This document shows positions 3,846 through 33,829 of a stretch of 40,203 bases of DNA, piece by piece; the stretch's first letter is position 1; the number at the start of each line of letters is the position of its first letter. A model generated the notes under the pieces. It searched no databases, was not told where the DNA came from, and worked only from the letters and a program-made list of their open reading frames with translations. The stretch lies in assembly GCA_964194995.1 (NCBI GenBank), contig CAXMPS010000054.1:1-40203 (forward strand), in the 5' to 3' direction. The translations under genes and the position numbers were made by a program. Origin of the DNA: an uncultured Gammaproteobacteria bacterium (GTDB taxonomy: Bacteria; Actinomycetota; Acidimicrobiia; Spongiisociales; ZC4RG35).

Positions 3846-3847
3846 TC

Positions 3848-4504: not shown

Positions 4505-5018
4505 GGGAATCCTCTTCGTTCTCATGGCGATGACTGCCCTTGCCGGCGCCGTGACAGTGGTCGTCGCTAGAAACCCCGTGTATTCGGCGATGGGCCTGTT
4601 GGGGACTCTTTTCTCGGTGGCGGTTCTATATGTCGCCCAGCTCGCTCATTTTGTGGCCGCCGTTCAGGTGATCGTTTACGCCGGTGCGGTATTGACACTG
4701 TTTCTCTTCGTCATCATGTTCATAGGTGTTGACACGTCCGACGACAGAGACGAGCGACTCCCGAAACAGCGGTTCTGGGTCGGCATCATGGCTGGTGTCA
4801 TCGTTCTTCTCGCCGGCGGGATCACACTGGGTGGCAACTTCAATTGGGTGCCAGCCGCGATCGAAACCAATCCGGAGGCCACCAATGGGACGATTCAGGC
4901 CATTGCCGAGCCGCTCTTCACCGATTGGGTCCTGGCATTTGAGGCGACGGCGCTTCTATTGACGATCTCGGCCGCGGGTGCGATCGCCCTCGCCCACTTC
5001 AAGGGACAACGATCGTGA
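4497..5018 (+). CDS. nuoJ: NADH-quinone oxidoreductase subunit J
   Basis: NPVYSA and [18 protein letters not shown]; ATG 4497 preceded by GGAGGAGG. Confidence 0.95.
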
Positions 5019-5320
5019 TTGTTGCCGCTGGGTACTACATGGCGCTCGCCGCCGCGCTCTTCGTGATTGGTGCGCTCGGGATGCTTCTTCGACGGAACGT
5101 CCTCGTCATGTTCATGTGCATCGAATTGATGCTCAACGCGGTCAACCTGACGCTGATCTCAGCCGGTCGGGCCCTCAACGATCTGAACGGTCAGGTAGCG
5201 GTCTTCTTCATCCTGGTGGTAGCCGCGGCTGAAGTAGTAGTGGGGTTGGCCATCATCGTTGCGATCTTCCGTCGACGCTCCACAGCGTCGATCGACGAGT
5301 TGAGCGACCTACGCGGATGA
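5015..5320 (+). CDS. nuoK: NADH-quinone oxidoreductase subunit K
   Basis: [15 protein letters not shown] and [11 protein letters not shown]. Confidence 0.97.
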
Positions 5321-7200: not shown

Positions 7201-7207
7201 GCTTCCA

Positions 7208-8737
7208 ATGCTGACCGCGCTGATCCTCCTTCCGGTTGCAGCGGCCGTCGTGATGATGGTGGTGCCGGGGCGTCGCAAAGAGCTTCACCTTCCTCTGGGG
7301 ATTGCCCTTTCCGTCCTGCCGCTGGCTCTTGCCGGGTACGTCTTCTGGATCTTTGAGCCGGCTCCAGGCTTTCAACTCGTCGAGTTGGTGTCGTGGTACG
7401 AGCCGTGGGGGATCAACTGGTTCCTGGGGATCGACGGGATCTCACTTCCGATGGTGGTCCTAACAACGTTCCTGGTGCCGATCGCCCTAGCTGCTTCGAC
7501 GTCGATCAAGACCAAGACGAAAGAGTTCGTGGTTTACACCCTCCTTCTCGAGGCGGGCATGATCGGCGTTTTCCTCGCCCTCGACCTTTTTCTGTTCTTT
7601 GTGTTCTTCGAAGCGATCTTGATTCCGATGTACTTCATCATCGGGATCTGGGGGGGCGAGCGGCGGGTCTACGCGGCCGTGAAGTTCTTCATATATACCG
7701 CCCTGGGGTCGGCGCTCATGTTGGGCGGGATCATCGCCTTGGCGGTCAGTTACTCATCACAGTTCGGCTCGCCTTCCTTTGCTCTAGGCGATCTGGCCAA
7801 CGTCGATCTGTCGCCTGGGTCGGCGAGGTGGCTGTTCGCCGCATTCGCCCTGGCATTTGCGATAAAGGTGCCACTGTTTCCTTTTCATACGTGGCTTCCC
7901 GACGCTCACGTGGAGGCCCCAACCGGAGGTTCGGTGCTGCTGGCCGGTGTGCTCCTGAAACTGGGAACGTACGGACTGCTGCGGTTCAATCTGACACTCT
8001 TCCCCGAGGCCTCCGTTGAGGCCGTGCCCATCATGGGGACCTTGGCCGTCGTCGGGATCATCTATGGGGCAGTGGTGTCCGTCGTCCAACCTGACCTGAA
8101 GAAACTCGTTGCCTACTCGTCGGTGAGCCATCTCGGCTTCATCGTCCTCGGGACTTTCGCCCTCACCTCAGGTGGTCTTCAGGGCGCGGTCATTCAGAAC
8201 GTGAACCACGGGCTGACAACGGGGGCGCTCTTCCTCCTGGTGGGCATGATCTACGAACGTCGTCATACCAAGAAGATCGAGGACTTTGGCGGCCTCCAGA
8301 AGGTCATGCCTATCTACGCCGGTTTCTTCCTGTTCATGATCTTCGCCTCGATCGGACTCCCGGGCCTCAATGGTTTCGTTGGCGAGTTTCTCATCCTCAT
8401 CGGCAGTTACACGACCTTGCCGTCCCTCGCAGTGGTCGCCGCGGGCGGCGTGATTCTCGCCGCCATCTACTTGCTGTGGGCATACGAGCGGGTGTTCACC
8501 GGGGTTCCCGAGAAAGAAGAGAACAAGGCACTGTCCGACCTGTCAGCCAGGGAAATCAGTTTGCTCGCGCCGATCGTGGCCCTGGTCCTTGTCCTTGGGC
8601 TCTTTCCCGGCGTACTGCTCGACAAGATTGCGCCGTCGACGGAAGCCGTTCTCGACTACATCGAAGATGAAACCGCATACGTGGTGCCCGAGCCGGGCCG
8701 ACTGGGCGATGTGTACGTGGCCGGGGAGGGCCGCTGA
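7208..8737 (+). CDS. nuoM: NADH-quinone oxidoreductase subunit M
   Basis: LGIDGIS, KVPLFPFHTWLPDAHVEAP, KLGTYG, GLPGLNGFVGEF. Confidence 0.97.
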   Translation: MLTALILLPVAAAVVMMVVPGRRKELHLPLGIALSVLPLALAGYVFWIFEPAPGFQLVELVSWYEPWGINWFLGIDGISLPMVVLTTFLVPIALAASTSIKTKTKEFVVYTLLLEAGMIGVFLALDLFLFFVFFEAILIPMYFIIGIWGGERRVYAAVKFFIYTALGSALMLGGIIALAVSYSSQFGSPSFALGDLANVDLSPGSARWLFAAFALAFAIKVPLFPFHTWLPDAHVEAPTGGSVLLAGVLLKLGTYGLLRFNLTLFPEASVEAVPIMGTLAVVGIIYGAVVSVVQPDLKKLVAYSSVSHLGFIVLGTFALTSGGLQGAVIQNVNHGLTTGALFLLVGMIYERRHTKKIEDFGGLQKVMPIYAGFFLFMIFASIGLPGLNGFVGEFLILIGSYTTLPSLAVVAAGGVILAAIYLLWAYERVFTGVPEKEENKALSDLSAREISLLAPIVALVLVLGLFPGVLLDKIAPSTEAVLDYIEDETAYVVPEPGRLGDVYVAGEGR

Positions 8738-10197
8738 TGATCACCCCACCTGAGATCTCTTGGATCGCGATTGCACCCGATCTGATTCTCGCTCTGGGGG
8801 CTGCAGTTGTTCTCCTTGTCGATGTCCAGTGGAAACCTGCCGTCCGTGTTCTCGGTATGGTGACGGGATTCTCCCTGGTCCTCGCTGTCGGGGCCACTCT
8901 GGTTCAGAAAATGGCCGCGGAGGATGCTGTGCTTGCGGCTGATCCGGGGTCGTTGGTTGCCTTCTCAGGAATGATCCTGATGGATGGGTTTGCCGTTTTC
9001 GCAAGATTCGCCTTGCTTGGCGCCACCGCTCTTGGTGTCCTCGCCGGTTGGCGCTACATCGAGGGCCTCGGGCGTCGCGGCGCCGAGGCGCTGGCCCTAA
9101 TCATGCTGGCTACCGCCGGCTTCTCGATCATGGTGGCTTCAAACAATCTGGTGATGATGTTCCTCGGACTCGAGGTGGGCTCCATCGCCCTCTACGTGCT
9201 GGCAGGGATGAGCAGGGAACGTCCCGAGTCGGATGAGGCGGCGATCAAGTACTTCCTCCTTGGTTCGTTTGCCTCTGCATTCTTCATATACGGCGTGGCT
9301 CTGATCTACGCCGGCACTGGACAGTTCGCCGTCCTGAACATCCGGGCCTTCTTCGACCAATTCGTAGTCACCAGCCCCGCAGTTGTTTACATCGGCATCG
9401 GTTTGGTCGTCGCCGGACTCGGGTTCAAGGTCTCAGCAGCGCCCTTCCACTCGTGGGCTCCCGACGTGTATCAGGGCGCTCCCGCAGGTGTGGTGGGGTA
9501 CATGGCTGCGGTCGCGAAGATTGCAGGGTTCGCTGCCATGGCGAGGATCCTGCTCACCGCTCTGGGTGACCTCGATAGCACCTGGCTCCCGATCGTGGCG
9601 GCGCTCGCCGCGCTCTCCATGCTCGTCGGGTCGACCTTCGCCCTGGTTCAGGGAGACGTCAGGAGAATGCTGGCCTACTCGGGTGTTGCACACGCCGGCT
9701 TCATCATGACCGGTGTGGTGGGTGGCGAAACGCAGGGCATTCTTTTCTATCTGGCCGTCTATGCGGTGCAGCTTCTGGGCGCGTTTGCCGTGGTGGTAGC
9801 TGTCAGTGGAGCTAGCGGAGCTCGTTCTTCCATTGATGACTATCGGGGTCTTGCGCGTCGAAGCCCCGGATTGGCGGGGTCTTTCGCTGTCCTGCTGCTG
9901 GGGATGGCGGGCTTGCCACTGACATCGGGATTCATCGCCAAGTTCGGTGTGTTTGCCGACGCTTGGAACAGCGGATATGAGTGGCTGGTTGTCGTGGCCG
10001 TCCTCGCATCCGTTATTGCGTTCGCTTTCTATTTGCGCATCATCGTCGCTATGTACATGGATGAGGCCGATGTCGAGGCACCGGCCCTGGTACCCACTGT
10101 TCGCTGGGTTGTCGGCCTCACCGTGGTGGCCACGATTGCCTGGGGGATCTTCCCGGGGTCGCTTCTCGATCTGGCTGCAAATGCGCTGCCGCTATAG
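8737..10197 (+). CDS. nuoN: NADH-quinone oxidoreductase subunit N
   Basis: EAAIKYFLLG, FKVSAAPFHSWAPDVYQGAP, RMLAYS, GLPLTSGFIAKF. Confidence 0.97.
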   Translation: MITPPEISWIAIAPDLILALGAAVVLLVDVQWKPAVRVLGMVTGFSLVLAVGATLVQKMAAEDAVLAADPGSLVAFSGMILMDGFAVFARFALLGATALGVLAGWRYIEGLGRRGAEALALIMLATAGFSIMVASNNLVMMFLGLEVGSIALYVLAGMSRERPESDEAAIKYFLLGSFASAFFIYGVALIYAGTGQFAVLNIRAFFDQFVVTSPAVVYIGIGLVVAGLGFKVSAAPFHSWAPDVYQGAPAGVVGYMAAVAKIAGFAAMARILLTALGDLDSTWLPIVAALAALSMLVGSTFALVQGDVRRMLAYSGVAHAGFIMTGVVGGETQGILFYLAVYAVQLLGAFAVVVAVSGASGARSSIDDYRGLARRSPGLAGSFAVLLLGMAGLPLTSGFIAKFGVFADAWNSGYEWLVVVAVLASVIAFAFYLRIIVAMYMDEADVEAPALVPTVRWVVGLTVVATIAWGIFPGSLLDLAANALPL

Positions 10198-10360
10198 GAG
10201 CCCGCTGAATAATGCATGCCACTCATTCCGACGACCCAGTTCATCGCCACTCGCGGTGTCCTCGGCGCCGCCATTCCGCCACAAGGAGTGGCGAAACCTC
10301 CTCCTTGCGAGTGACGCGCCTGGCCGCCGATCTGAGCAACGGCATCAATCAGCAGACTCC
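10197..10360 (+). mobile_element. MITE-like palindromic repeat, copy 1 (164 bp)
   Basis: Imperfect 19-bp terminal inverted repeats (GGAGCCCGCTGAATAATGC ... GCATCAATCAGCAGACTCC), TA on both sides; aligns end to end with 16368-16530 (reverse) and 33644-33806. Confidence 0.85.
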
Positions 10361-11510
10361 TAGGCGGGCCACCAGCGCGCTTCTCTTCGTCGCCGTATTC
10401 CTGGCCGTTACCGCCGCGACGGCCGAGTCGGCGCTAGCGGCTGAAACCGCTTCGTCGGATGTCGTGGTGATCCGGGAAGACGTGGTCGTCGAGGATGATC
10501 TTTATGCCACCGGGATCCGGGTTGTGGTCGAGGGAAGGATCGAGGGCGACCTCATCGCATTCGCCGCTGAAGAGGTTGTGATCGAAGGCGTGGTGACCGG
10601 GAGCGTCTTCGCCGCGACTCAACAGGTCTCTGTCAGCGGTGAGGTCGGCGAGTCATTGCGGGTGAGCGCAACAAGCGTCGATGTCTCGGGGACGGTTGGA
10701 AAAGACCTGGTCGTCGTCAGTTTGGGGTTGGACGTCACCGAGGACGCGGAGATTGGTGGCGACGTCCTCATTTGGGCATGGGGCGCATCCGTTGCCGGGA
10801 CCATCGGGGGCGACCTGACCGCCACTCAGCGCGACCTCGAGCTCGCTGGTTCGGTCGGGGGTGAGGTCGAGGTCACTGTCACCCATCTGACCATCACAGG
10901 CCCGCTGACAGTGGGCGGCGATTTGGCATACCGGTCTGAGTCGCCTGCGACCGGGCTGGAACACGTAGAGGTCGGCGGCGTGGTGGTTCACAAGAGCCCA
11001 CTAGCCCCGAATATTCGGGTGCGTGCCCTTGGTCTTTTGGCGAGAGCCCTTGTTGCGCTCGCACTCACCGCTACCTCGATCCTGGTCGCGTTGGGGTGGC
11101 CGGGGAGGACGGAGCAGGCGGCAAAGCGAGCCAGGTCTGATTGGCTTCGCTCCTACGGCATCGGGTTTCTTGTCATCTTCTCGCCGATCCTGATCATCGG
11201 GGTCAGCGCGCTGATCGTCGCGATTGCTCCGGCAGCCGCATCGCTGCCTTTGCTGGCGGTTCTGGTTCCGGTTGCCATCGTCCTGGCAGGCCTGGTCATG
11301 GCTTTCTCGCTGGTGGCCGGGGCACCCTCGGTGCTCATGCTCGGCCGCCTTCTCCGGGGGAGCCTGGGGATATACGGGGCCATCGTCGCCGGCTCTGCGT
11401 TGGTGAGCCTGGTGTGGTTTCTCCCGATTGTTGGTTGGTTGGTTCCGTTGATCGTGCTTCCCCTCGGAGCTGGGTCCTGGATCGTGGCCAGTCGCATCAA
11501 GCCGGATTGA
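10212..11510 (+). CDS. Beta-helical repeat (polymer-forming/bactofilin-like) membrane protein; 5' end disrupted by the repeat element, start uncertain
   Basis: Signal-peptide-like RRATSALLFVAVFLAVTAATAESALA, V/I-x-G-x-V-x-G-D repeats, then several C-terminal TM helices. The first ~50 codons of the ORF are element-derived. Confidence 0.65.
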   Translation: MHATHSDDPVHRHSRCPRRRHSATRSGETSSLRVTRLAADLSNGINQQTPRRATSALLFVAVFLAVTAATAESALAAETASSDVVVIREDVVVEDDLYATGIRVVVEGRIEGDLIAFAAEEVVIEGVVTGSVFAATQQVSVSGEVGESLRVSATSVDVSGTVGKDLVVVSLGLDVTEDAEIGGDVLIWAWGASVAGTIGGDLTATQRDLELAGSVGGEVEVTVTHLTITGPLTVGGDLAYRSESPATGLEHVEVGGVVVHKSPLAPNIRVRALGLLARALVALALTATSILVALGWPGRTEQAAKRARSDWLRSYGIGFLVIFSPILIIGVSALIVAIAPAAASLPLLAVLVPVAIVLAGLVMAFSLVAGAPSVLMLGRLLRGSLGIYGAIVAGSALVSLVWFLPIVGWLVPLIVLPLGAGSWIVASRIKPD

Positions 11511-13743: not shown

Positions 13744-14769
13744 CTACGTTCCTCGGGGATAGACCCGGGCATCAGTCGCCCGAGCACGGCATTTCTGCCC
13801 GGCGGTGTAGCGAGGCCGTGGTCCGATCCTCGATCTGACCCTCGTCCCTTCGCCCACAGCGAGGGTGACTAGCTGGTCGTGGCCGAAGAATTCGACGTTG
13901 GCTACCACGGCATTTGATGTCTCGCCAAGGGAGATCTGGACATTTTCGGGGCGGATCACCACGAGGACCGGTCCCTTGAGGTCGGTCTTGAATCGGCCCA
14001 ACGGCGTGTCGGCGTATCCACGATGGGCGGTAGCGGGGAGCACATCGGCATCGCCGAGAAACTCGGCGATCCAAGGGTTGGCCGGGTTGCTGTACAGCTC
14101 CGCAGGGGCGTCCGCCTGGAGAACTCGCCCATCCTTCATCACTGCGACGATATCCGATGTCGCCAGCGCTTCCTCCTGGTCGTGGGTCACGAACACTGCG
14201 GTGATCCTTGCTTCGGTCAGGATCATCCGCAGCTCGCGCCTGACCCGATCTCGGAGTGCGGCATCCAGGTTGGAGAAGGGCTCGTCGAGGAGGATTACGT
14301 CAGGTTTGGGGGCCAGCGCCCGGGCCAGAGCCACTCTTTGCTGCTCTCCACCGGAAAGCTCATTGGGCATCCTGTCGTCGAGTCCCTGCAGCCCTACAAG
14401 CTCGAGTACTGCGTCGATCCTGCGAGTCCCTTTTCTTCGAGACAGCCCATAGGCCACATTTGCCCGCACAGTCATGTGGGGGAAGAGGGCGTAATCCTGG
14501 AAGACCATTCCGACCTTGCGCCTCTCAGGCGGGACGAAGGTCCCGTTGCCGAGAACTCGCCGGCCCCGGATGTCGACGACTCCCTCGGCACCCTCGAATC
14601 CGGCGATGACGCGCAGTGCGGTGGTCTTCCCGCAGCCAGAAGGTCCGAGCAGCGTCAAAAGACCGCCCTCCCAGACGTCGAGGCTGAAATGGTCGAGTGC
14701 GATGTCGTCGTCGTATGACTTGGACAGGTCGCGAGCTCGGATGGCTAGTTGGTCAGTCGCGGAGGTCAC
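13744..14769 (-). CDS. Fe(III)-type ABC transporter ATP-binding protein (FbpC/PotA family)
   Basis: GPSGCGKT, LSGGEQQR, LLDEPFS, VTHDQEEA; C-terminal TOBE-like region. Confidence 0.93.
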   Translation of the reverse strand: MTSATDQLAIRARDLSKSYDDDIALDHFSLDVWEGGLLTLLGPSGCGKTTALRVIAGFEGAEGVVDIRGRRVLGNGTFVPPERRKVGMVFQDYALFPHMTVRANVAYGLSRRKGTRRIDAVLELVGLQGLDDRMPNELSGGEQQRVALARALAPKPDVILLDEPFSNLDAALRDRVRRELRMILTEARITAVFVTHDQEEALATSDIVAVMKDGRVLQADAPAELYSNPANPWIAEFLGDADVLPATAHRGYADTPLGRFKTDLKGPVLVVIRPENVQISLGETSNAVVANVEFFGHDQLVTLAVGEGTRVRSRIGPRPRYTAGQKCRARATDARVYPRGT

Positions 14770-16351
14770 GGAACATCAGCGCCAAGAGTGGCACGATCGA
14801 CACGGCAAGCAAGGCCAGACTGGCCACGGACGCCCGCGTGTAGAACCCTTCGCCCGTCGTGCTCCAAATCCTGATCGCCAAGGTCTCGAAGCCGTTGGGG
14901 CGGAGCAACAGCGTCGCTGGCAGCTCCTTCATCACTGAAAGAAAGACCAGAGCGGCACCAGCCATGAGCCCGGGGGTCGCAAGGGGGATCGTCACCCTTC
15001 GCAAGGTCGCCAAAGGGCCTCTCCCGAGACCCCGGGAAGCATCCTCCAAGTCGGGGCTCGCTCTCCGCAGGGAATCTTGAGTTGAGCTCATCGTCTGAGC
15101 GAGGAACATCACGACATAAGTGGCCAGAAGCAGCCCCAAGCTCTGGTAAATCGGTCTGGCCCACGCCAGAGCGAACCCGACAACGGCGACACCGACGGTG
15201 ATATGGGGAAGGGCGTATGTTGCCCACACCGCCGTGTCCGCGGCGTCGGACAGCTTGCCTTTTCGGCGCGTTGTGATCATTGCAATCGGGAAGGCGGCGA
15301 AGGCGGCAATTGTCGCCGCGCCGATCGAGACACCCACTGATCGAATTGTCTCCTCCCACACCGTTCCCAGCTCCTGCCCCGCGCCAAGTCCGCGTGTCAG
15401 CCAGAAAATGAGAACTGAGACCGGGATGACGATCGACAGTGTGGTGAGGCTGCCCAGGAAGGCGAGGGCACCAATTCGACTCACCCGTTTGAGAGACAAC
15501 ATCTTTCGAATTCGCTTGACCCGGGGGGCGTGGTAGCTCGCTCGACTCCTGGTCCGGCGCTCCACCAGCAGGATTCCCAGCGCTAGGACCATGAGAATCA
15601 GCGACAGCACCGCAGCCGGCTGACGGTCGATTTGGCCTTCGTAGAGGGTGAAGATGGCCCGAGTGAACGTGTCGTATCTGAGCAGGGAGACTGCCCCGAA
15701 GTCTGAGATGGTGTAGAGACCGACCATGAGACCGGCGGAGACAAGAGCAGGCCGGAGCTGGGGGAGAGTCACTGTGAAGAAGACTCTCCTTTGGCTCGCC
15801 CCCAAGCCGGTGGCGGCGTCTTCGGTGGCGGGATCGATCAGGCGCAGTCCCGGGGTCACGATGAGGTGTGCCATTGGAGAGAGAAACACCGACAAGGCCA
15901 GCCACGCCCCAACAAACCCGTAGGGGGTGGGGATGTCGAACCCGACCCAGCTCGAGATGAGACCTGTCGGCCCTGTGGCGCCAATGATGGTGAGAGCGGC
16001 TACATAGCTTGGCATCACCAGAGGGAGGGCGGCGAGGATCATCCATATCCGACGCCAGGGGACGTCAGTGCGGCTTGTCAGCCATGCGGTAGCGGTTCCC
16101 AGGGAGAGGGCCGTAATCGTGACGGCGACGGTCAAGGCCAGTGTCGCCACGAAAAGCTCCCAGAGACGATCCAAGGGCACGGGTGTTCCGGTGCCTTTGG
16201 TGACCACCTGCCAGACGAGGCTGATCGGAGGGATCAGAACCGGCAACAGGACGATCCCGGCCGCAGTCCACCAGCCCCGCCCACCCGGGCGCCGCTGCTG
16301 CCGAGTCGTGGTCTTCGTCCCCGGTGAGACGACCAGAGGCCCGGCGACCAT
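14753..16351 (-). CDS. Fe(III)-type ABC transporter permease (FbpB-like, duplicated domain)
   Basis: Two EAA-like loops (EDAATGLGA, EDASRGLG), SDFGAV and KELPATL; start taken at ATG 16351 just outside repeat copy 2. Confidence 0.9.
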   Translation of the reverse strand: MVAGPLVVSPGTKTTTRQQRRPGGRGWWTAAGIVLLPVLIPPISLVWQVVTKGTGTPVPLDRLWELFVATLALTVAVTITALSLGTATAWLTSRTDVPWRRIWMILAALPLVMPSYVAALTIIGATGPTGLISSWVGFDIPTPYGFVGAWLALSVFLSPMAHLIVTPGLRLIDPATEDAATGLGASQRRVFFTVTLPQLRPALVSAGLMVGLYTISDFGAVSLLRYDTFTRAIFTLYEGQIDRQPAAVLSLILMVLALGILLVERRTRSRASYHAPRVKRIRKMLSLKRVSRIGALAFLGSLTTLSIVIPVSVLIFWLTRGLGAGQELGTVWEETIRSVGVSIGAATIAAFAAFPIAMITTRRKGKLSDAADTAVWATYALPHITVGVAVVGFALAWARPIYQSLGLLLATYVVMFLAQTMSSTQDSLRRASPDLEDASRGLGRGPLATLRRVTIPLATPGLMAGAALVFLSVMKELPATLLLRPNGFETLAIRIWSTTGEGFYTRASVASLALLAVSIVPLLALMFRDLRD

Positions 16352-16367
16352 CAGCAGCTCGCCCCTG

Positions 16368-16530
16368 GGAGTCTGCTGGGTAATGCCGTTGCTCGGATCG
16401 GCGGCCAGGCGCGCCACTCGCAAGGACGAGGTTTCGCCACTCCTTGGGGTGGAATGGCGGGGCCGAGGGCACCGTGAGTGGCGATGACCTGGCCGTCGAG
16501 ATGGGTGACATGCATTGCTCGGCGGGCTCC
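16368..16530 (-). mobile_element. MITE-like palindromic repeat, copy 2 (163 bp)
   Basis: Reverse-strand copy starting at the G of the TAG stop of the binding-protein gene; about 88% identical to copy 3 by manual count (19 differences). Confidence 0.85.
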
Positions 16531-17519
16531 TACACAAGACCCGCCTCGGCGACGAGTCGCGCGGCGACACCGAGCACGTCGGCCAGAGCCGAGAGGTTTA
16601 TGTCCGGTGCGTTGATTTCCGAGAGCTGGGGGAGTCCCTCAGCCGGGTCGACACCCTCGATCAAGGGGAACTCGAAGGTCTCCTTGGCGAAGTACGTCTG
16701 CGCTGCCGGCGTGAGCAGAAACTCGACGAACTCCCCGGCTGCGGTCGGCATGTTGGTTTCAGAGAGGATGGCGACTCCGGCGGGCATGACAAGAGTTCCC
16801 ACGTCGCCCGCCGGTATGAACCAGTTTTCGGAATCGTCCCCTTCGCCCTCGGCGCGGAGACGCAAAAGGTAGTAGTGGTTTACCAGCCCGCCTTCGATCT
16901 CACCGGAGTCGGCGGCGGCCACTATCGGGCTGTTCTTGGGGTAATCGATCGGGTCGTTGGCGGCAAGGGCCTCGAGCCATTCGAGAGTCGCCTCTTCGCC
17001 CCTTTCGAGGATCATTGCCGAAACAAACGCCAGGAATGACCCATTGGTAGGAGCAACACCGACCTGGCCGGCCCAGACCGGGTCGATGACGTCATCGATG
17101 GTGCTGGGGAGCGGCAGATCGCTCCCGGTGTTGTAGACAAAGGTGCGAACCCGCCCCGAAGTGCCGACCCAGCGACCTTGGTCGTCGGCGAATTTGTCAT
17201 CAACCAGGACGAGGACGTCGGAGGGAAGAACTGTCAACATGTCCGCGACCGAGCCAAGCGACGCGGGGTCTTGCGCGAAGAAGATGTCGGCTTCTGTTCT
17301 CTCGCCTTCCTCGATCAGAGTGGCGGCCAACTCGGTCGACCCGCCGTACCGGACTTCCACCTCGATCCCGGTGTCCTCGGTGAAGTCATCGATCAGCGGC
17401 TGGACCAACTCCTCCGACCGCCCCGAATAGACCACGAGGGGACCATCGGCCGCATCTGTCCCGGAGCACGAGGCGAGGATCAGGCCGCCGAGAAGAGTCA
17501 ACGCAAACAGTCTTTTCAA
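16530..17519 (-). CDS. Fe(III) ABC transporter substrate-binding lipoprotein (FbpA/FutA-like)
   Basis: Lipobox LASC, VYSGR, GRVR and LVNHYY (tandem Tyr iron ligands); TTG 17519 with AGGAG 7 nt upstream. Confidence 0.9.
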   Translation of the reverse strand: MKRLFALTLLGGLILASCSGTDAADGPLVVYSGRSEELVQPLIDDFTEDTGIEVEVRYGGSTELAATLIEEGERTEADIFFAQDPASLGSVADMLTVLPSDVLVLVDDKFADDQGRWVGTSGRVRTFVYNTGSDLPLPSTIDDVIDPVWAGQVGVAPTNGSFLAFVSAMILERGEEATLEWLEALAANDPIDYPKNSPIVAAADSGEIEGGLVNHYYLLRLRAEGEGDDSENWFIPAGDVGTLVMPAGVAILSETNMPTAAGEFVEFLLTPAAQTYFAKETFEFPLIEGVDPAEGLPQLSEINAPDINLSALADVLGVAARLVAEAGLV

Positions 17520-17531
17520 CCGAGAGCTCCT

Positions 17532-17557
17532 GAGATCGTTAGTTACCGAACGATCTC
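17532..17557. promoter_or_regulatory. Inverted repeat upstream of the iron ABC operon, candidate operator or leader hairpin
   Basis: GAGATCGTT-AGTTACCG-AACGATCTC, perfect 9-bp arms just upstream of the RBS. Confidence 0.4.
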
Positions 17558-17624
17558 GAAATCTATTACCGCCGAGACCGCTCTGCAACATTTTCTGCCA
17601 ACTCTCGGCGCCCGCTCTCGCTGC

Positions 17625-17669
17625 GTTGCTCGTGCTTAACGTCCCGGAAATCGGGACGTCTTGCACGAC
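17625..17669 (+). repeat. REP-like hairpin, left of the DUF559 gene
   Basis: GTTGCTCGTGCTTAACGTCCCG-GAAAT-CGGGACGTCTTGCACGAC; inverted copy at 18626-18670. Confidence 0.8.
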
Positions 17670-17718
17670 AGTGGACAAACGGGTTGAAGTTGGGTCGGTT
17701 TGGTGGCATTAGTCGGGT

Positions 17719-18648
17719 GTGGGGGATGATCGGCTGATCGATGTGTTCGCCTCGCGTCAGTACGGGGCGTTCAGTGTTGCCCAGGTCAGGGAGGCGGGTC
17801 TTGATCGCAGGGCGGTGAGTCGGCGCATTGCCACAGGGGCCTGGGTGAAGCTATGCCCGGGCGCATACGCGCTCACTTCGGCTCCGCCCATCTGGGAGCG
17901 GCAGCTCTCCGCCGCCGTGCTCAGCAGGTCGCGCGCCGTCGTGGCGGGCGCTTCGGCCGCCTATCTGCATCGATTCCAGGGTTTCGGCACGGAGCGTCCG
18001 GTGATCATGGTGCCGTGGAGCGGGAACGGCAGATCGCCTATCGCCAGAGTGATCCGATCCACGTTCTTTCTGACGGTGTCGACCGAGAGGAAGATGGCGT
18101 TCGTGACGACAACAGCGGCGGAGACCCTGCTGACGCTTGCCGCCTCTTGGAAAGAACCCAAGCTCGCCTCCTTGCTCGATGATTGTCTGCTGACCGGCAA
18201 GGTGAAGATCGATGAATTCGACCCGATTTTCGATCGTATCGTCGGGGCTCGGCTGGCCGGAGCGGGCCGGCTGCGCACATTGGTCGAACAGCGCCTTCCA
18301 GACGTTTTCGAGATCGGAGCTACCTATCTGGAGCGTTGTCTTCAACGCGTGCTCACCGACGATCGGATCCCGTCCTGGTCACAGGAACACCCGTTCTCGA
18401 TCAATGGGGCGCCTGGACGGGTAGACGCATTCATTCCCCACTGGCTACTGGTGGTCGAAGCAGACAGCCGTCGATGGCACGCCCGCCAAGCGGATTTCGA
18501 ATCCGATCGACGCCGGGACAACGGCCTTGCGGCTCAGGGAATACAGGTCTTGCGTTTCTCTTATTCGATGCTGACCAAGAGTCCCGAGCGGTGCTTGGTC
18601 AACATTCTCGACGTTGGAGAACACCGTCGTGCAGATGGTCCTGTTTAA
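17719..18648 (+). CDS. AbiEi-like N-terminal domain plus DUF559 (Vsr-like PD-(D/E)xK) endonuclease domain protein
   Basis: N-terminal RQYGAFS...AG...GAW...PGAY typical of actinobacterial AbiEi-like domains; C-terminal RVDA...LVVEADSRRWH...DRRRDN.L...G..VLRF typical of DUF559. Confidence 0.85.
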   Translation: MGDDRLIDVFASRQYGAFSVAQVREAGLDRRAVSRRIATGAWVKLCPGAYALTSAPPIWERQLSAAVLSRSRAVVAGASAAYLHRFQGFGTERPVIMVPWSGNGRSPIARVIRSTFFLTVSTERKMAFVTTTAAETLLTLAASWKEPKLASLLDDCLLTGKVKIDEFDPIFDRIVGARLAGAGRLRTLVEQRLPDVFEIGATYLERCLQRVLTDDRIPSWSQEHPFSINGAPGRVDAFIPHWLLVVEADSRRWHARQADFESDRRRDNGLAAQGIQVLRFSYSMLTKSPERCLVNILDVGEHRRADGPV

Positions 18649-18670
18649 CGGGACGTTACGCACGAGCAAC
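18626..18670 (-). repeat. REP-like hairpin, right of the DUF559 gene
   Basis: Reverse complement GTTGCTCGTGCGTAACGTCCCG-TTAAA-CAGGACCATCTGCACGAC; outer 22 bp match the left copy 21/22, 36/45 overall. Confidence 0.8.
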
Positions 18671-22485: not shown

Positions 22486-23489
22486 CCACGTTCGTAACCG
22501 AACTCTTCTCCAACTTCTGGGTGTCGCTTGCCGCCAAGCTGGCTCTTGTAGCCATGATGATTCCACTGATCGGAATGGTGATCGGGTTCGCCGAGATGAA
22601 GCTCTCGGCGAAGATGCAGTCCCGGATCGGTCCCTATTTCGCCGGGGGTCGGTGGGGATGGGCTCAGCTCATTGCGGACGGCGTCAAATTCTTCCAAAAG
22701 GAAGACCTCATTCCCGAAGACGCAGATCGTCCCGTCTTCAAGTCTGCGCCGCTTCTGGTGCTTGTCGGAACCGTCGCCCTATTCGTCGTGATCCCGTTCG
22801 GCCCAGGCTTGATCTTCCGCGACCTCTCTGTGGGCATCTTCTACGCCCTGGCTATTTCCTCGATCAGCACGATCGGTGTCCTCATGGCGGGATGGTCCTC
22901 GGCCAACAAGTACTCGCTCATGGGCGGACTTCGCGCCGCCGGGCAGCTCATTGCCTACGAACTACCCCTCGTGCTCGCCGTCGTGGGCTCGGTGATCATG
23001 GCCGGAACACTCAGCATGAGTGGCATCGTTGAGGCGCAGATCGCTGCCGGCTACCCCTTTGTGATCCTCCAGGTCGTCGGATTCGCGATCTTCATGATCG
23101 CCGCCCTCGCCGAGTTGACCCGGATCCCGTTCGACATGCCCATCGCCGAGTCGGAGCTGGTCATGGGGTATCTCACCGAATACTCAGGCTTCAGGTTTCT
23201 CTTCTTCTTCCTCGCCGAGTTCGCCAACATGTTCACGATGTCGGCCATCGCCGCCACACTGTTCCTGGGCGGTTATTGGCTGCCCGGCATCCCCGAGTCC
23301 GTTCTCGAATTCGCCGGTCCCGTTATCCTCATCGGCAAGGTCTTCATCCTGTCGTTCGTCATGATTTGGTTCCGCTGGACCTTCCCCCGTTTCCGGGAAG
23401 ATCAGCTTCAGACTCTGGCGTGGAAGTGGTTGATCCCGATCGCACTGGCCAACATTGTGATAACCGCCGTTCTCAAGGTTCTTCTCTGA
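22482..23489 (+). CDS. nuoH: Complex I-like subunit H (second operon)
   Basis: [36 protein letters not shown]. Confidence 0.96.
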
Positions 23490-23989
23490 TGGCCAACGGC
23501 AACGGCTCACGCACTCTCCTGGGCATGGGGATGGTGAAAGGTCTCTTCGTGACCATCACGACGATGTTCAAGACCATCTTCCTCCCGAAGAAGCACCTGG
23601 CGACAGTCAACTATCCCAAGGTCAAGGAGACCCCAGCCCCGCGGGCCCGCGGGGTCATCGCCCTCGATCAGGAGGCCTGCACGGTCTGCATGCTTTGTGC
23701 CCGGCAGTGCCCCGACTGGTGCATCTACATCGAGGGCCATAAGGAGGAGCAGCCTCCTTCCAAGCCCGGCGGCCGGATCAAGGTGAGGGCGACGCTGGAT
23801 CGCTTCGACATCGACTACGCCCTATGCATGTACTGCGGGATCTGTGTCGAAGTTTGCCCGTTCGATGCGCTCTTCTGGACACCCGAGTATGAGTACTCGG
23901 AGACCCAGATGGGAGAGATGCTGCACGACATGGATCGGCTTCAGGATTGGATGAAGACGGTCCCCGAGGTCCCGGCGCTGGAACCGTGA
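23489..23989 (+). CDS. nuoI: Complex I-like subunit I (second operon)
   Basis: [12 protein letters not shown] and [12 protein letters not shown]; ATG overlaps the nuoH TGA. Confidence 0.94.
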
Positions 23990-24071
23990 TGCTGGTTCAG
24001 CTGAATTTCGATTCAGCCCTTCAGTCGATGAGTCGTGTTAGCCGCCGCATGGGAGCAGAGCAGGTGGCGGC

Positions 24072-24623
24072 TTGACCTTTTCCGCCTGGATATCCGAGCC
24101 GATCAACTGGGTCTTTCTCCTTGTGGGACTGATCGTGCTCGTGTCAGGATTCCGTGTCGTGACCGCCAAGAACGTCGTGCACGCGGCTCTGCTGCTGGTG
24201 GCCGCCCTCGCCGGAACCGCAGGACTCTTTCTCATGCTCGCGGCGGAGTTCGTCGCCTGGGTGCTGGTCCTGGTTTACATCGGAGCGGTGATCGTGCTGT
24301 TCCTATTCGGAATCATGATCACCCGCGCTCCGACCGGTCAGGATGAGGGTCTCGATTCCGAGAAGAAGATTGTCCCCGCCCTGCTTTCGGTTGGCGTCTT
24401 CTTGTTGATGGCCTGGGCGTCGATCGACGCCTTCAGCACCACGCTGGTGGGCGGGACGGGGGATCCGATTTCGACCGAGTTGATCGGCGAGTCTCTGCTT
24501 GGCAGATTCGTCATCCCGTTCGAGGTGGTCTCCTTCGTCCTGTTGGCGGCGCTGATCGGCAGTATCACTCTGGCCCGCAAGGACCTCACGCCAATCGAGG
24601 AAGAGGAAGGACAGCGGGTCTGA
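24072..24623 (+). CDS. nuoJ: Complex I-like subunit J (second operon)
   Basis: NVVHAAL, VYIGAVIVLFLFGIM, PFEVVS; TTG start (in-frame stop at 24039 limits extension). Confidence 0.93.
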   Translation: MTFSAWISEPINWVFLLVGLIVLVSGFRVVTAKNVVHAALLLVAALAGTAGLFLMLAAEFVAWVLVLVYIGAVIVLFLFGIMITRAPTGQDEGLDSEKKIVPALLSVGVFLLMAWASIDAFSTTLVGGTGDPISTELIGESLLGRFVIPFEVVSFVLLAALIGSITLARKDLTPIEEEEGQRV

Positions 24624-24928
24624 TGATTCTGAACCAGTTCCTCATCCTGGCGGCGGCTCTTTTCGCCTTCGGCATCTATGGCCTGCTGGTCCGAAGGAAC
24701 ATCGTGCTGATCCTCCTCTCTGTTGAGTTGATGCTCACCGCCGTAAATATCAACTTCATCGCCTTCGAGTCCGTCTTTCGCAGCTCCGACGCCATAGGCC
24801 AGGTTTTCACCATCTTCATAATCACCGTCGCCGCCGCCGAGGTGGGCATCGGGCTGGCGATCGTGCTGATGATCTTCAGGAACCGTAAGTCCGCCAACGT
24901 CGACGACCTCAGACTGATGAGGTACTGA
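24623..24928 (+). CDS. nuoK: Complex I-like subunit K (second operon)
   Basis: RRNI...SVELML and AAAEVGIGLAI. Confidence 0.96.
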   Translation: MILNQFLILAAALFAFGIYGLLVRRNIVLILLSVELMLTAVNINFIAFESVFRSSDAIGQVFTIFIITVAAAEVGIGLAIVLMIFRNRKSANVDDLRLMRY

Positions 24929-26955: not shown

Positions 26956-26970
26956 GAGAGGCTGATAGCG

Positions 26971-28590: not shown

Positions 28591-28593
28591 TCG

Positions 28594-32653: not shown

Positions 32654-32663
32654 GACTGGTGCG

Positions 32664-33644
32664 GTGACCAACAAGCAGCGAGTGTTTTCAGGCATCCAGC
32701 CCACTGGGGGCCTTCCCCACGTGGGCAACTATGTCGGCGCGCTGAACAATTGGGTCGAGATGCAGGCTGATTACGACACGATCTATTGCGTCGTCGACCT
32801 TCACTCGATGACCATTCCCTACGATCCTCATGAGTTCAAGCAGGCGAGGATCGACACAGCCAAGATGTTGCTCGCCGTGGGTGTCGACCCGGGAACGTCG
32901 CTTCTCTACTACCAGGCCGATGTTCTCCAGCACGTCGAACTGGCCTGGATACTCTCCACGATCACCGGCCTCGGTCAGTTGGAGAGGATGACCCAGTTCA
33001 AGGAGAAGTCCGACCGGGCGGGCAAGAATCTGGGACTCCTGGCCTATCCCGTTTTGATGGCGGCCGACATCTTGATCCACAAGGTGCATGCGGTCCCGGT
33101 CGGGGATGACCAGGCACAACACCTCGAACTCGCCCGTGACCTCGCGATGCGCTTCAACGCCAGGTTCGGTGATGAGTTTCCCGTTCCGGATCGGATCACT
33201 CCAGGGGTCGGGGCACGGGTGATGTCCCTCACTGATCCAACAACGAAAATGTCTGGCTCTGATCCGAGCGGGAAATCTCGCATCCTCTTGAATGACTCTC
33301 CTGACATCATCGTCAGAAAGGTCAGGTCTGCGGTGACCGACACTGGGTCGCAGGTCGTCTACGACCCTGATGGCAAGCCAGGGATCTCGAATCTCCTCGA
33401 ATTGTTCAGTTTCTTCACCGGTCGATCGATCGATTCTCTTGCAGACGAGTACGTCGATGCTGGCTACGGGACGTTCAAGGCCGCCGTCGGCGAGGCAATC
33501 TCCGAGGGTCTCGGGCCGATCAGGGAACGCTACGAAGCCGTCGATGATGGCGAGGTTTCCTTGATCATGCGGCGGGGCGCCGAGGAAGCTCGTGATCGTG
33601 CCGAGATGGAGATGAAGTCGGTCCGGGAGAAGATCGGGCTATAG
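32664..33644 (+). CDS. trpS: Tryptophan--tRNA ligase
   Basis: FSGIQPTG, HVGNY (HIGH), YPVLMAADIL, VPVGDDQ, KMSGS; start at GTG 32664 after the LCP stop. Confidence 0.95.
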   Translation: MTNKQRVFSGIQPTGGLPHVGNYVGALNNWVEMQADYDTIYCVVDLHSMTIPYDPHEFKQARIDTAKMLLAVGVDPGTSLLYYQADVLQHVELAWILSTITGLGQLERMTQFKEKSDRAGKNLGLLAYPVLMAADILIHKVHAVPVGDDQAQHLELARDLAMRFNARFGDEFPVPDRITPGVGARVMSLTDPTTKMSGSDPSGKSRILLNDSPDIIVRKVRSAVTDTGSQVVYDPDGKPGISNLLELFSFFTGRSIDSLADEYVDAGYGTFKAAVGEAISEGLGPIRERYEAVDDGEVSLIMRRGAEEARDRAEMEMKSVREKIGL

Positions 33645-33806
33645 GAGCCCGCTGAACAATGCATGTCACTTATCTCGACGACCATGTCATCGCCACTCGC
33701 GGTGTCCTCGGCTCCGCCATTCCGATCCGAGGAGTGGCGAAACCTCGTTCTTGCGAGTGGCGCGCCTGGCCGCCGATCTGACCGACGGCATTATCCAACA
33801 GACTCC
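33644..33806 (+). mobile_element. MITE-like palindromic repeat, copy 3 (163 bp)
   Basis: Begins at the G of the trpS TAG; GGAGCCCGCTGAACAATGC ... GCATTATCCAACAGACTCC; about 87% identical to copy 1 by manual count. Confidence 0.85.
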
Positions 33807-33811
33807 TGGTC

Positions 33812-33827
33812 GCCCGCTGAACAATGC
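33812..33827 (+). repeat. Solo copy of the element's left end
   Basis: GCCCGCTGAACAATGC, identical to 33647-33662. Confidence 0.8.
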
Positions 33828-33829
33828 CT

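What the first reader, a model, noticed from the sequence alone, without database searches (positions are those of the whole stretch)
16368..16530. The element folds as one long rod, but only on the strand antisense to the upstream gene
Seen in copy 2, + strand: terminal 19-bp stem fully paired with 5 G-T wobbles; GTTGCTCG/TGGGTGAC; a GA/GA internal loop; TCGGCGGCCAGG/CCTGGCCGTCGA; CGCCACTCGC/GTGAGTGGCG; a purine-rich bubble; GGTTTCGCCACTCC/GGAATGGCGGGGCC; 7-nt loop. Across the three terminal stems, 13 of 14 non-Watson-Crick positions (7 distinct columns) are G-T on this strand and A-C on the mRNA strand. One column covaries (G-C in copy 2, A-T in copy 3), and the apical loop is the most variable part. 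The bias follows the element, not the chromosome strand. Inference: selection on a single-stranded RNA or DNA structure (antisense RNA, or strand-specific recombinase substrate), or insertions survive only when the mRNA carries the weaker fold.
Basis: partly seen in the sequence, partly recalled or inferred. Interest (0 to 1): 0.75.

Follow-up and report, generated by a model that had tools for sequence, protein, structure and literature searches.

The report
Miniature transposon folding on one strand
This is one copy of a small non-coding jumping element of uncultured Acidimicrobiia that lands on stop codons and is built so that only one of its two strands folds into a long hairpin; that bias belongs to the element, not to the direction of the neighbouring genes.

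Summary
Window 16368-16530 folds as one rod on the + strand (-116.1 kcal/mol, z -7.7) and poorly on the - strand (-75.6, z -2.2).

It is one of 29 near-full copies in this genome of a ~163-bp repeat with terminal inverted repeats and TA flanks. The family occurs in many Acidimicrobiia genomes. All three window copies sit where a same-genus genome has an empty C-TA-G site whose TAG is a stop codon. So it is a mobile MITE that duplicates TA.

The strand bias is a family trait:
- The consensus has 12 G.T against 4 A.C, plus three tandem G.A.
- 28 of 28 local copies and 96 of 97 foreign copies fold better on the same strand.
- Covariation is strong.
- New substitutions favour G.T over A.C, 136:78 on terminal branches and 53:11 on internal branches.

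The title's rule, fold only antisense to the upstream gene, does not generalise. My crude gene calls give 9 against 8 in this genome and 56 against 31 pooled.

Best reading: selection on a single-stranded fold of the element itself. RNA or ssDNA cannot be told apart. No transposase partner was found. A look-up by sequence in this scan's earlier notes found nothing.

The parts
16368..16530 (+). Copy 2 of the element (163 nt). The rod-forming strand is the + strand.
   Evidence: Folds. Aligned with 28 other genomic copies. The site is empty in same-genus genome G003.
16368..16388 (+). 'T-type' terminal inverted repeat (GGAGTCTGCTG...) of copy 2
   Evidence: Alignment of 29 copies. It pairs with 16510-16530 through G.T wobbles.
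16510..16530 (+). 'C-type' terminal inverted repeat of copy 2. On the - strand it reads GGAGCCCGCC...
   Evidence: It differs from the T-type end by T/C transitions that give G.T on the + strand.
16444..16450 (+). 7-nt apical loop (TTGGGGT), the most variable part of the element
   Evidence: Structure; variability.
16531..16532 (.). TA flank next to the C-type end. With the first G of the element it forms the TAG stop (16532-16530, - strand) of the solute-binding-protein gene.
   Evidence: The empty site in G003 reads C-TA-G.
16366..16367 (.). Degenerate second copy of the TA duplication. It reads TG on the + strand, CA on the - strand.
16533..17678 (-). Upstream gene: ABC-type solute-binding protein. 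It ends on the element's TA+G.
   Evidence: ORF. Pfam SBP_bac_6, SBP_bac_11, SBP_bac_1 and SBP_bac_8.
14756..16351 (-). Downstream gene: ABC transporter permease. Its likely ATG at 16351-16349 lies 16 nt past the element. The longer ORF 14753-16570 through the element is probably an artefact of the element's open frame.
   Evidence: Pfam BPD_transp_1. The G003 empty site has the same ATG 13 nt after the stop.
10197..10360 (-). Copy 1 (164 nt). The rod strand is the - strand. TA flanks lie at 10195-10196 and 10361-10362. TAG at 10195-10197 is the stop of the NuoN-like gene 8737-10197.
   Evidence: -94.7 against -64.4. Pfam Proton_antipo_M. The site is empty in G003.
33644..33806 (-). Copy 3 (163 nt). 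The rod strand is the - strand. TA lies at 33642-33643. TAG at 33642-33644 is the stop of the Trp/Tyr-tRNA synthetase gene 32535-33644. The convergent Rce1-like gene ends at 33830.
   Evidence: -98.8 against -65.8. Pfam. The site is empty in G003.
33809..33829 (+). 21-nt remnant that repeats the C-type end, directly after copy 3
   Evidence: Read. Absent from the G003 empty site.

Best explanation
Window 16368-16530 is one insertion of a non-autonomous miniature inverted-repeat transposable element (MITE). It is about 163 bp long and belongs to a family spread through uncultured Acidimicrobiia.

How it inserts. The element inserts at a TA, preferably within C-TA-G, and duplicates the TA. Both of its ends begin with GGAG, so either end rebuilds a TAG. 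An insertion into the TA of a TAG or TAA stop codon therefore leaves the upstream protein unchanged. This explains why so many copies abut stop codons.

The fold. The whole element is an imperfect palindrome. Its imperfections are almost all G.T and tandem G.A on one strand, the 'rod' strand, so that strand folds into one long hairpin and the complement folds much less well. This asymmetry is a heritable property of the family. It is kept by selection: changes that give G.T are tolerated, and changes that give A.C or transversion mismatches are under-represented. The effect is strongest on branches of the family tree that left several descendants.

What I infer. A single-stranded, folded form of the rod strand matters for the element's own propagation or persistence. 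That form could be ssDNA exposed at transposition or replication, or a transcript of that strand. The asymmetry is not a consequence of how copies lie relative to host genes. That orientation is only mildly biased.

Shown: the element's identity and mobility, the family-wide asymmetry, the covariation and the substitution bias. Inferred: that the selected object is a single-stranded fold tied to propagation. Unknown: whether it is RNA or DNA, and which enzyme moves the element.

My confidence by part: MITE identity and mobility about 0.9; asymmetry is family-wide and selected about 0.8; not set by gene orientation about 0.85; the selected fold is tied to propagation about 0.45.
For: Family and mobility
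- This genome holds 29 near-full copies at 86-92% identity, plus shorter matches.
- The termini are GGAGTCTGCTGAATAATGCC... and ...GCATTGTTCAGCGGGCTCC.
- Of 117 copies with intact ends, 75 have TA on the left and 82 on the right. 66 have CTA on the left; on the right 54 have TAG and 18 have TAA. 116 of the 117 lie at distinct sites.
- All 3 window sites are empty in same-genus genome G003, where each reads C-TA-G with TAG as a stop codon.
- The family was found in 12 of 61 genomes in the relatives search (G000 plus 60 relatives), patchily. An exact-pattern scan found at least 111 stretches, nearly all in Acidimicrobiia records.
- At least 10 deletion derivatives of 37-76 nt keep one end of each type.
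- Stop overlap: 36 of 78 genes arriving at the C-type end and 22 of 53 arriving at the T-type end stop exactly on TA+G.

Asymmetry
- Copy 2 gives -116.1 against -75.6 kcal/mol.
- 28 of 28 local copies fold better on the rod strand, mean -96.2 against -65.1. The consensus gives -110.9 against -75.9.
- In relatives, rod beats anti in 26 of 26 (G020), 11 of 11 (G033), 4 of 4, 3 of 3, 3 of 3 and 3 of 3 copies. In other public genomes it does so in 96 of 97.
- Strand-symmetric pairing of the consensus gives 54 Watson-Crick, 12 G.T, 4 A.C, 6 G.A in three tandems, 2 G.G and 1 T.C. The other genome consensuses give 10-16 G.T against 3-4 A.C.

Covariation and substitution bias
- On 148 copies, 96.9% of cells pair against 88.4% in shuffles. 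24 of 36 pairs show double changes. The covariation score is 0.335 against 0.172, and 0 of 500 shuffles reach it. Slid partners pair in 30-46% of cells.
- The same pairs on the other strand reach 80.1%. Cells are 953 G.T against 63 A.C.
- Within nine genomes, variants seen in one copy go to G.T 55 times and to A.C 36 times. Variants shared by several copies go 47 against 15.
- Tree parsimony gives G.T against A.C of 136:78 on terminal and 53:11 on internal branches (Fisher p 0.0036). Transversion mismatches number 162 on terminal and 20 on internal branches.

Not a known RNA
- Rfam gives 0 matches at gathering score and 0 at E up to 1.
Against: - No transposase with matching ends was found. 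There is no DDE_3 (PF13358) match in G000, which is 75.6% complete. Five element-rich relatives gave one match, in G033, and no matching terminal repeats lie near it. So the mechanism of movement is unproven.
- TA duplication with terminal inverted repeats is what double-stranded cut-and-paste elements produce (recalled). Such transposition has no known need for a folded single strand.
- At the level of one consensus, 12 G.T against 4 A.C is only p 0.077. The strength of the case comes from replication across lineages.
- Copies within a family are related. The structure used was predicted on the rod strand and leans towards G.U. The tree is built from about 165 nt.
- Terminal branches are also biased (136:78). 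So selection on inserted copies, meaning a host-level function, is not excluded.
- Orientation against genes and flank GC skew are not random: 56 against 31, and mean skew -0.013. Some survivorship filter therefore acts on insertions.
- Gene calls are my own crude codon-score caller.
Confidence: 0.6

Rival explanations
1. Host-level RNA element. The rod strand is transcribed, either by read-through from neighbouring genes or from a start inside the element. The long hairpin then acts on RNA as an antisense RNA to the gene that ends at the C-type end, as an RNase III or 3'-end processing site, or as an mRNA stabiliser or terminator. Selection for this RNA keeps the G.U pairs.
For: - G.U and tandem G.A are typical RNA helix imperfections (recalled). 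The RNA fold of the rod strand is very stable, z -7.7.
- Terminal branches also favour G.T, 136:78.
- 22 of 154 copies lie between convergent genes, where both strands would be transcribed.
- Two runs labelled as RNA hold fragments of the element's interior. In both, the fragment begins at window 16398, directly next to adapter sequence. This is a weak hint, from contigs only.
- Known MITEs (Correia, ERIC) affect mRNA through hairpins, promoters and RNase III or RNase E. For this I read parts 1-2 of PMC2229807 and saw only the abstract of PMC2649163 in the listing.
Against: - No sigma-70-like promoter and no intrinsic terminator were found in 16250-16650. There is no Rfam match.
- Inserted copies decay freely. 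On terminal branches, 240 of 376 changes at Watson-Crick pairs break the rod.
- The sites are young and differ even between species of one genus: 3 of 3 are empty in G003. So no conserved locus-specific function is visible.
- If the hairpin helped the mRNA, one would expect mRNAs to carry the rod. The observed bias is the other way, 31 against 56.
- The RNA runs give no strand and may hold DNA.
Confidence: 0.2
2. Survivorship by orientation. The element inserts in either orientation, but only insertions that put the weakly folding strand into the mRNA survive. On this view the association between strand and gene is the primary fact.
For: - In the window, 3 of 3 copies put the weak strand into the mRNA of the upstream gene.
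- Pooled, co-directional contexts split 40 against 22 (p 0.030). Contexts with an arriving gene on one side only split 56 against 31 (p 0.0097).
- These are independent insertions: 116 distinct sites out of 117.
Against: - In this genome the split is 9 against 8. 31 of the 87 one-sided contexts carry the rod in the mRNA, and 22 further copies lie between convergent genes. So it is a mild filter, not a rule.
- It cannot explain why the element is asymmetric in the first place, nor why new G.T are favoured over A.C within the family.
- Gene calls are crude.
Confidence: 0.1
3. No selection on structure. The asymmetry is a mutational footprint, for example C-to-T deamination of one strand in the source copies, combined with inheritance from one master sequence.
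For: - All 12 consensus wobbles could derive from C-to-T on the rod strand.
- The consensus wobbles are shared by descent.
- The rod strand is G-rich: G 61, C 43.
Against: - The bias recurs on many independent branches and in a subfamily about 73% identical, which has new wobble positions and a replaced apical hairpin.
- Copies lie in both orientations relative to genes and to each other. Same-contig pairs are 3 in the same and 8 in opposite orientation. So a strand-specific mutation pressure should average out.
- Three tandem G.A mismatches need transversions.
- Double compensatory changes are frequent: 451 cells against 110 in shuffles.
Confidence: 0.07

Closest known systems
Correia / NEMIS elements (CREE) of Neisseria
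   Same: Both are non-coding, have terminal inverted repeats, carry TA at the termini with target duplication, occur in many dispersed copies, have internal-deletion size variants, and give transcripts predicted to fold as long stem-loops (PMC2229807, parts 1-2 read). Here: 163 bp, TA flanks, and 37-76 nt derivatives.
   Different: Correia elements are A+T-rich and carry an IHF site and promoters (PMC2229807). This family is G+C-rich (G 61, C 43, T 30, A 29), and no promoter-like site was found. The papers I read do not describe a strand-specific G.T excess for Correia elements. No sequence similarity was tested.
RUP of Streptococcus pneumoniae (mobilised by IS630-Spn1) and IS630/Tc1-mariner elements
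   Same: Insertion at TA with TA duplication. The preference for C-TA-G (66 of 75 CTA, 54 of 82 TAG) matches the IS630 target as I recall it. RUP is the best-argued case of a bacterial MITE moved by an IS630 transposase (PMC2229807).
   Different: No IS630-type transposase with matching ends was found. [quoted passage not shown] Here one frame is open through the consensus (my own reading of the consensus; not run through a translation tool).
ERIC / IRU of enterobacteria
   Same: An imperfect palindrome of similar size (127 bp), co-transcribed with neighbouring genes. The effect of its hairpin on mRNA depends on orientation (PMC2229807).
   Different: For ERIC the orientation effect is experimental. 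Here there is only a 1.8 to 1 orientation bias. The phyla differ. No sequence relation was tested.
Rickettsia palindromic elements (RPE)
   Same: A palindromic mobile element whose length allows in-frame read-through. Here 163 + 2 = 165 nt = 55 codons with one open frame, and ORF 10212-11510 runs from copy 1 into the downstream gene.
   Different: RPEs are found inside conserved proteins (PMC2229807). Here nearly all copies are at gene ends. I did not demonstrate any copy inside a conserved protein.
Integron attC sites and IS200/IS605 ends (strand-specific folded ssDNA substrates)
   Same: This is a functional analogy only. In these systems one particular strand must fold to be recombined (recalled).
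   Different: Those have no TA duplication and no full-length terminal inverted repeats of this kind, and they are shorter. Here TIRs and a TSD are present. Neighbouring copies do not share an orientation, 3 same against 8 opposite.

Membership tests
Bacterial MITE (criteria as listed in Delihas 2008, PMC2229807) | Small (under about 200 bp) and without a protein gene of its own | tested here: met
   161-164 nt in the 28 full copies. No Pfam-bearing ORF was sought inside it. One open frame of 55 codons only.
Bacterial MITE (criteria as listed in Delihas 2008, PMC2229807) | Terminal inverted repeats | tested here: met
   The terminal 19 nt pair end to end, 14-15 Watson-Crick plus 3-5 G.T.
Bacterial MITE (criteria as listed in Delihas 2008, PMC2229807) | TA at the termini and target-site duplication | tested here: met
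   Left TA in 75 of 117 and right TA in 82 of 117 copies. The three empty sites in G003 each hold a single C-TA-G.
Bacterial MITE (criteria as listed in Delihas 2008, PMC2229807) | Many dispersed copies, and filled/empty polymorphism between related genomes | tested here: met
   29 near-full copies in G000. 116 distinct sites out of 117. 3 of 3 window sites empty in G003. No match in 2 of 3 same-genus genomes, G001 and G002.
Bacterial MITE (criteria as listed in Delihas 2008, PMC2229807) | A+T-rich | tested here: not met
   The consensus has G 61, C 43, T 30, A 29. YPAL is also listed in the review as not A+T-rich, so this is not a strict criterion.
Bacterial MITE (criteria as listed in Delihas 2008, PMC2229807) | Transcript folds as a long stem-loop | tested here: met
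   Predicted only: -116.1 kcal/mol, z -7.7. Transcription itself is not shown.
MITE mobilised by an IS630/Tc1-mariner transposase | TA duplication at a CTAG-like target | tested here: met
MITE mobilised by an IS630/Tc1-mariner transposase | An autonomous element with the same terminal repeats and a DDE_3 transposase | tested here: inconclusive
   PF13358 gave 0 matches in G000 (75.6% complete) and 1 match in 5 relatives (G033). No matching ends lie within the 2.5 kb held around that match. Other transposase families were not searched.
REP / REPIN with RAYT | Short (20-40 nt) palindromes with a conserved tetranucleotide tag and no target duplication | tested here: not met
   163 nt with a TA duplication. 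RAYT genes were not searched.
IS200/IS605-derived palindromic elements (ssDNA transposition) | No terminal inverted repeats, no target duplication, orientation tied to replication | tested here: not met
   TIRs and TSD are present. Same-contig neighbours are 3 in the same and 8 in opposite orientation.
Any curated RNA family (Rfam 15) | Match to a covariance model | tested here: not met
   0 matches at gathering score in the whole window. 0 matches at E up to 1 in 16300-16600.

The most novel reading that the evidence does not exclude
A TA-duplicating, inverted-repeat MITE whose spread depends on a strand-specific folded single strand. Either the enzyme that moves it acts on the hairpin formed by one DNA strand, as integrases do at attC sites or TnpA does at IS608 ends, which would be a mode not known for TA-targeting elements. 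Or the element makes a rod RNA of about 125-160 nt that is needed for, or regulates, its own propagation. The purging of A.C but not G.T on internal branches (53:11) would be the evolutionary trace of that requirement.
Probability: 0.2. Interest if true: 0.7.

Novelty: new member of a known kind. Interest (0 to 1): 0.45.

Why it matters
It adds a well-defined, recently mobile MITE family to a class of bacteria known almost only from metagenomes. No paper in the searchable library joins 'Acidimicrobiia' with 'miniature inverted'.

It shows how a TA-targeting element stays harmless in a G+C-rich, gene-dense genome. It lands on the TA of stop codons and rebuilds the stop with its own first base.

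The element breaks assemblies and creates long spurious ORFs, for example 14753-16570, so annotators should know about it.

The strand-specific conservation of pairing is the unusual part. Pairing is replicated across lineages and is strongest in the lineages that multiplied. This gives a concrete, testable hint that a single-stranded form takes part in the life of a class of elements usually thought to move as double-stranded DNA.

Tried and rejected
- Known RNA family: none found.
- Promoter or intrinsic terminator in or beside copy 2: none found.
- Transposase partner: the DDE_3 search was negative in G000. One hit in G033 had no matching ends nearby. A search of G000 for pairs of element ends 0.7-2.5 kb apart gave only short derivatives and solo ends, several of them at contig edges.
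- 4-bp (YTAR) or 3-bp duplication models: rejected. The inner G and C are constant while the outer bases vary.
- Replication-determined orientation: not supported in G000, where same-contig pairs are 3 same and 8 opposite. A weak negative flank GC skew remains unexplained.
- Expression:
  - The run search returned mostly DNA metagenomes and two RNA-labelled runs kept only as contigs.
  - Laying them gave no strand, level or ends that can be trusted. It gave only the shared fragment start at 16398.
  - One DNA contig in run X3 joins 16352 to 16526 at depth 3.2. This agrees with the empty site seen in G003 but is weak on its own.
- My first guess that the gene after copy 1 originally started at an ATG overlapping the NuoN-like gene was dropped. 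G003 showed a start 30 nt after the stop.
I computed DNA-parameter folds in a script instead.
- Literature: searches found no description of this family, and none of a G.T strand bias in a MITE. PMC2267715 (passages read) only remarks that stem-loop repeats usually fold on both strands unless GU pairing is essential. PMC3493969 held nothing relevant.
Full report
WHAT IS THERE

As RNA, the + strand of 16355-16535 forms one rod of -116.1 kcal/mol (z -7.70; 0 of 200 dinucleotide shuffles fold as well). The - strand reaches only -75.6 kcal/mol (z -2.24; 5 of 200). The rod is made of these parts:
- a terminal stem of 21 pairs, 19 of them inside the element, with 5 G.T;
- an 8-pair stem;
- a GA/GA internal loop;
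- a long helix;
- a purine-rich bubble;
- an apical helix;
- the 7-nt loop TTGGGGT at 16444-16450.

The three terminal stems in the window hold 13 G.T, 1 other mismatch and no A.C.

The window holds three copies: 10197-10360, 16368-16530 and 33644-33806. The first and third are inverted relative to the second.

A REPEAT FAMILY WITH THE ANATOMY OF A MITE

The genome is an incomplete assembly of 2.37 Mb in 519 contigs, 75.6% complete and 60.7% G+C. It holds 29 near-full copies at 86-92% identity to copy 2, one of them cut by a contig end, plus shorter matches.

Aligned, the copies are 161-164 nt long. They begin GGAGTCTGCTGAATAATGCC and end GCATTGTTCAGCGGGCTCC. The ends are inverted repeats that differ by T/C transitions. 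I call them the T-type end and the C-type end.

The flanks are TA on both sides. I pooled 154 distinct full copies from 30 genomes, of which 117 have both ends intact. Of those 117:
- 75 have TA on the left and 82 on the right;
- the base outside is C on the left in 66;
- the base outside on the right is G in 54 and A in 18;
- 116 of the 117 lie at different sites.

At least ten shorter derivatives of 37-76 nt keep one end of each type. Five of about 60 nt appear, by my reading of the sequences printed, to share the same internal breakpoint.

MOBILITY

G003 is a genome of the same genus whose flanks are about 90% identical, and it carries its own 25 or more copies elsewhere. In G003 all three window sites are empty. 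The empty sites read C-TA-G, and in each the TAG is the stop codon of the upstream gene. Pfam identifies those genes:
- an ABC solute-binding protein gene, for copy 2;
- a Proton_antipo_M (NuoN-like) gene, for copy 1;
- a class I Trp/Tyr-tRNA synthetase gene, for copy 3.

So the element inserted into the TA of the stop codon and duplicated it. Because both ends start with G, TA+G restores a TAG stop.

With my own crude codon-score gene caller, 36 of 78 genes that run into the C-type end stop exactly on that TAG, and so do 22 of 53 that run into the T-type end. A further 7 and 10 stop within the first 16 nt of the element. In particular, the T-type end carries an in-frame TAA six codons in. I read this as the reason why its TA flank is less conserved in G000 than the TA flank at the C-type end.

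The family is patchy among relatives. It was found in 12 of the 61 genomes in the relatives search (G000 plus 60 relatives), and it gave no match in two of three same-genus genomes. An exact-pattern scan of one genome per species found at least 111 stretches, nearly all in records titled Acidimicrobiia or Actinomycetota.

THE STRAND ASYMMETRY BELONGS TO THE FAMILY

- All 28 full local copies fold better on the same element strand, mean -96.2 against -65.1 kcal/mol, with a smallest difference of 13.9. The consensus gives -110.9 against -75.9.
- The same holds in relatives: 26 of 26, 11 of 11, 4 of 4, 3 of 3, 3 of 3 and 3 of 3 copies. Only two poor copies in G041 split 1 of 2.
- It holds in 96 of 97 copies from other public genomes and in all ten short derivatives, one of them only marginally.
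- The consensus fold has 55 Watson-Crick and 12 G.T pairs.

Folding one strand favours G.T by construction. So I also aligned the consensus with its own reverse complement, scoring both kinds of transition mismatch alike. That gave 54 Watson-Crick, 12 G.T, 4 A.C (all in loop regions), 6 G.A in three tandems, 2 G.G and 1 T.C. Six other genome consensuses give 10-16 G.T against 3-4 A.C.

The G020 subfamily is only about 73% identical and has a different apical hairpin. It keeps the asymmetry (-110.9 against -81.0) and has partly new wobble positions.

But the pattern is replicated across lineages.

EVIDENCE FOR SELECTION

On an alignment of 148 copies, RNAalifold keeps 36 pairs, and 24 of them show changes on both sides. 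For this structure:
- 96.9% of cells form standard pairs, against 88.4% in 500 shuffles;
- the covariation score is 0.335 against 0.172;
- no shuffle reaches the observed values;
- sliding the partner by 1-3 columns gives 30-46%.

The same pairs read on the other strand give 80.1%. The cells are 953 G.T against 63 A.C, and 29 pairs have more G.T than A.C against 4 the other way.

Within nine genomes, using the strand-symmetric pairing, variants at Watson-Crick pairs that occur in one copy go to G.T 55 times and to A.C 36 times (p 0.059). Variants shared by several copies go 47 against 15 (p 6e-5).

On a FastTree phylogeny with parsimony over 81 symmetric pair positions:
- terminal branches show 136 against 78;
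- internal branches show 53 against 11 (Fisher p 0.0036);
- transversion mismatches number 162 on terminal and 20 on internal branches.

Under strand-symmetric mutation both transition outcomes are equally likely. The copies lie in both orientations. I therefore read this as purifying selection for pairing of the rod strand, strongest in lineages that went on to multiply.

Caveats: the copies are related, the tree rests on about 165 nt, and the structure was predicted on the rod strand.

WHAT THE ASYMMETRY IS NOT

It is not tied to the neighbouring gene. In the window the rod strand is antisense to the upstream gene in 3 of 3 copies. In the whole genome, contexts with one clear direction split 9 against 8. 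Pooled figures are:
- co-directional contexts: 40 against 22 (p 0.030);
- all contexts with an arriving gene on one side only: 56 against 31 (p 0.0097);
- between convergent genes: 22 copies.

So there is a mild preference, about 1.8 to 1, for the weakly folding strand to be in the mRNA. This fits some cost of a very stable hairpin inside operons, but it is no rule.

The asymmetry is not a known RNA, and no promoter-like or terminator-like site is present.

Orientation does not follow the chromosome strand. Same-contig neighbours in G000 are 3 in the same and 8 in opposite orientation. A small negative GC skew of the flanks read in rod orientation remains unexplained. The mean is -0.013, and it is also seen in convergent contexts.

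MECHANISM: SHOWN AND INFERRED

Shown:
- a TA-duplicating, inverted-repeat, non-coding mobile element;
- a family-wide asymmetry that is conserved and supported by covariation.

Inferred:
- one strand has to fold when single-stranded;
- this matters mainly for propagation.

Not decided: whether the folded strand is RNA or DNA. DNA energy parameters give the same asymmetry, -42.3 against -32.3, with 152 of 154 copies favouring the rod strand.

The runs that hold this DNA are mostly metagenomes. Two runs labelled RNA are kept only as contigs. They hold fragments of the element's interior that begin at 16398, directly next to adapter sequence, in both runs. They give no strand and may contain DNA.

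No transposase partner was found. As far as I recall, a need for a folded single strand is not known for TA-targeting cut-and-paste elements. That is the main reason for caution.

COMPARISON WITH WHAT IS KNOWN

By the criteria of the Delihas review (PMC2229807, parts 1-2 read) this is a bacterial MITE of the Correia, ERIC, RUP, RPE and YPAL kind. It is small and has inverted repeats, TA termini with duplication, many copies, and a long predicted stem-loop. It differs in being G+C-rich.

The C-TA-G target and the TA duplication point to an IS630/Tc1-like transposase, as proposed for RUP. That defining link is untested here.

Orientation-dependent effects on mRNA are known for ERIC. Promoters and RNase III sites are known for Correia elements (PMC2229807; for PMC2649163 I saw only the abstract in a listing).

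I found no description of this family. I also found no description of a strand-specific excess of G.T in a MITE. PMC2267715 only notes that stem-loop repeats usually fold on both strands unless GU pairing is essential (passages read). Supplementary files could not be read.

VERDICT

Its strand-specific structural conservation is worth an experiment.

Noticed in passing
window 10181-10400, and L237 (G003): In G003 the gene downstream of the NuoN-like gene starts at an ATG 30 nt after the stop. In G000 that codon reads AGC, and ORF 10212-11510 runs from inside copy 1 into the gene. So the start codon and N-terminus may now come from the element, or the gene may be disabled. Pfam finds no family for the protein.
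   Followed up: partly
window 33809-33829: A 21-nt remnant that repeats the C-type end lies directly after the T-type end of copy 3. It is absent from the 5-nt empty site in G003. It may be a solo end or the trace of an earlier insertion.
   Followed up: partly
element consensus (all copies): 163 nt plus the 2-nt duplication makes 165 nt, or 55 codons. One frame of the non-rod strand is open through the consensus. The other two frames stop at codon 1 (TAG) or codon 4 (TGA). This is read by eye from the consensus. It creates long spurious ORFs such as 14753-16570.
   Followed up: partly
G000 contigs C316, C33, C335, C512, C113, C80, C236, C260, C302, C341: Deletion derivatives of 37-76 nt are made of the two ends only. 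Five of about 60 nt share, by my reading of the printed sequences, the same internal breakpoint, which suggests the short form itself multiplied.
   Followed up: partly
G033 and G026: All 10 full copies in G033 lie on the + strand of 6 contigs. 13 of 15 matches in G026 lie on the - strand. This is unexplained. It may relate to the weak negative flank GC skew in rod orientation.
   Followed up: partly
window 16398 (runs X19, X20): Two RNA-labelled metatranscriptome runs from different studies each hold a contig in which adapter sequence is followed directly by element sequence starting at 16398. That position is the first base after the GA/GA loop. It could be a discrete RNA end or a short-insert artefact.
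   Followed up: no
window 3468-9800 and 23145-29648: Direct repeats D2, D3, D4 and D6, 72-76% identical and spaced about 19.7-19.8 kb apart, indicate two paralogous gene runs. Only one gene of the first run was checked: Proton_antipo_M.
   Followed up: no
window 17625-17673 and 18622-18670: A 49-nt inverted repeat, 80% complementary, brackets ORF 17719-18648. It is unrelated to the element.
   Followed up: no
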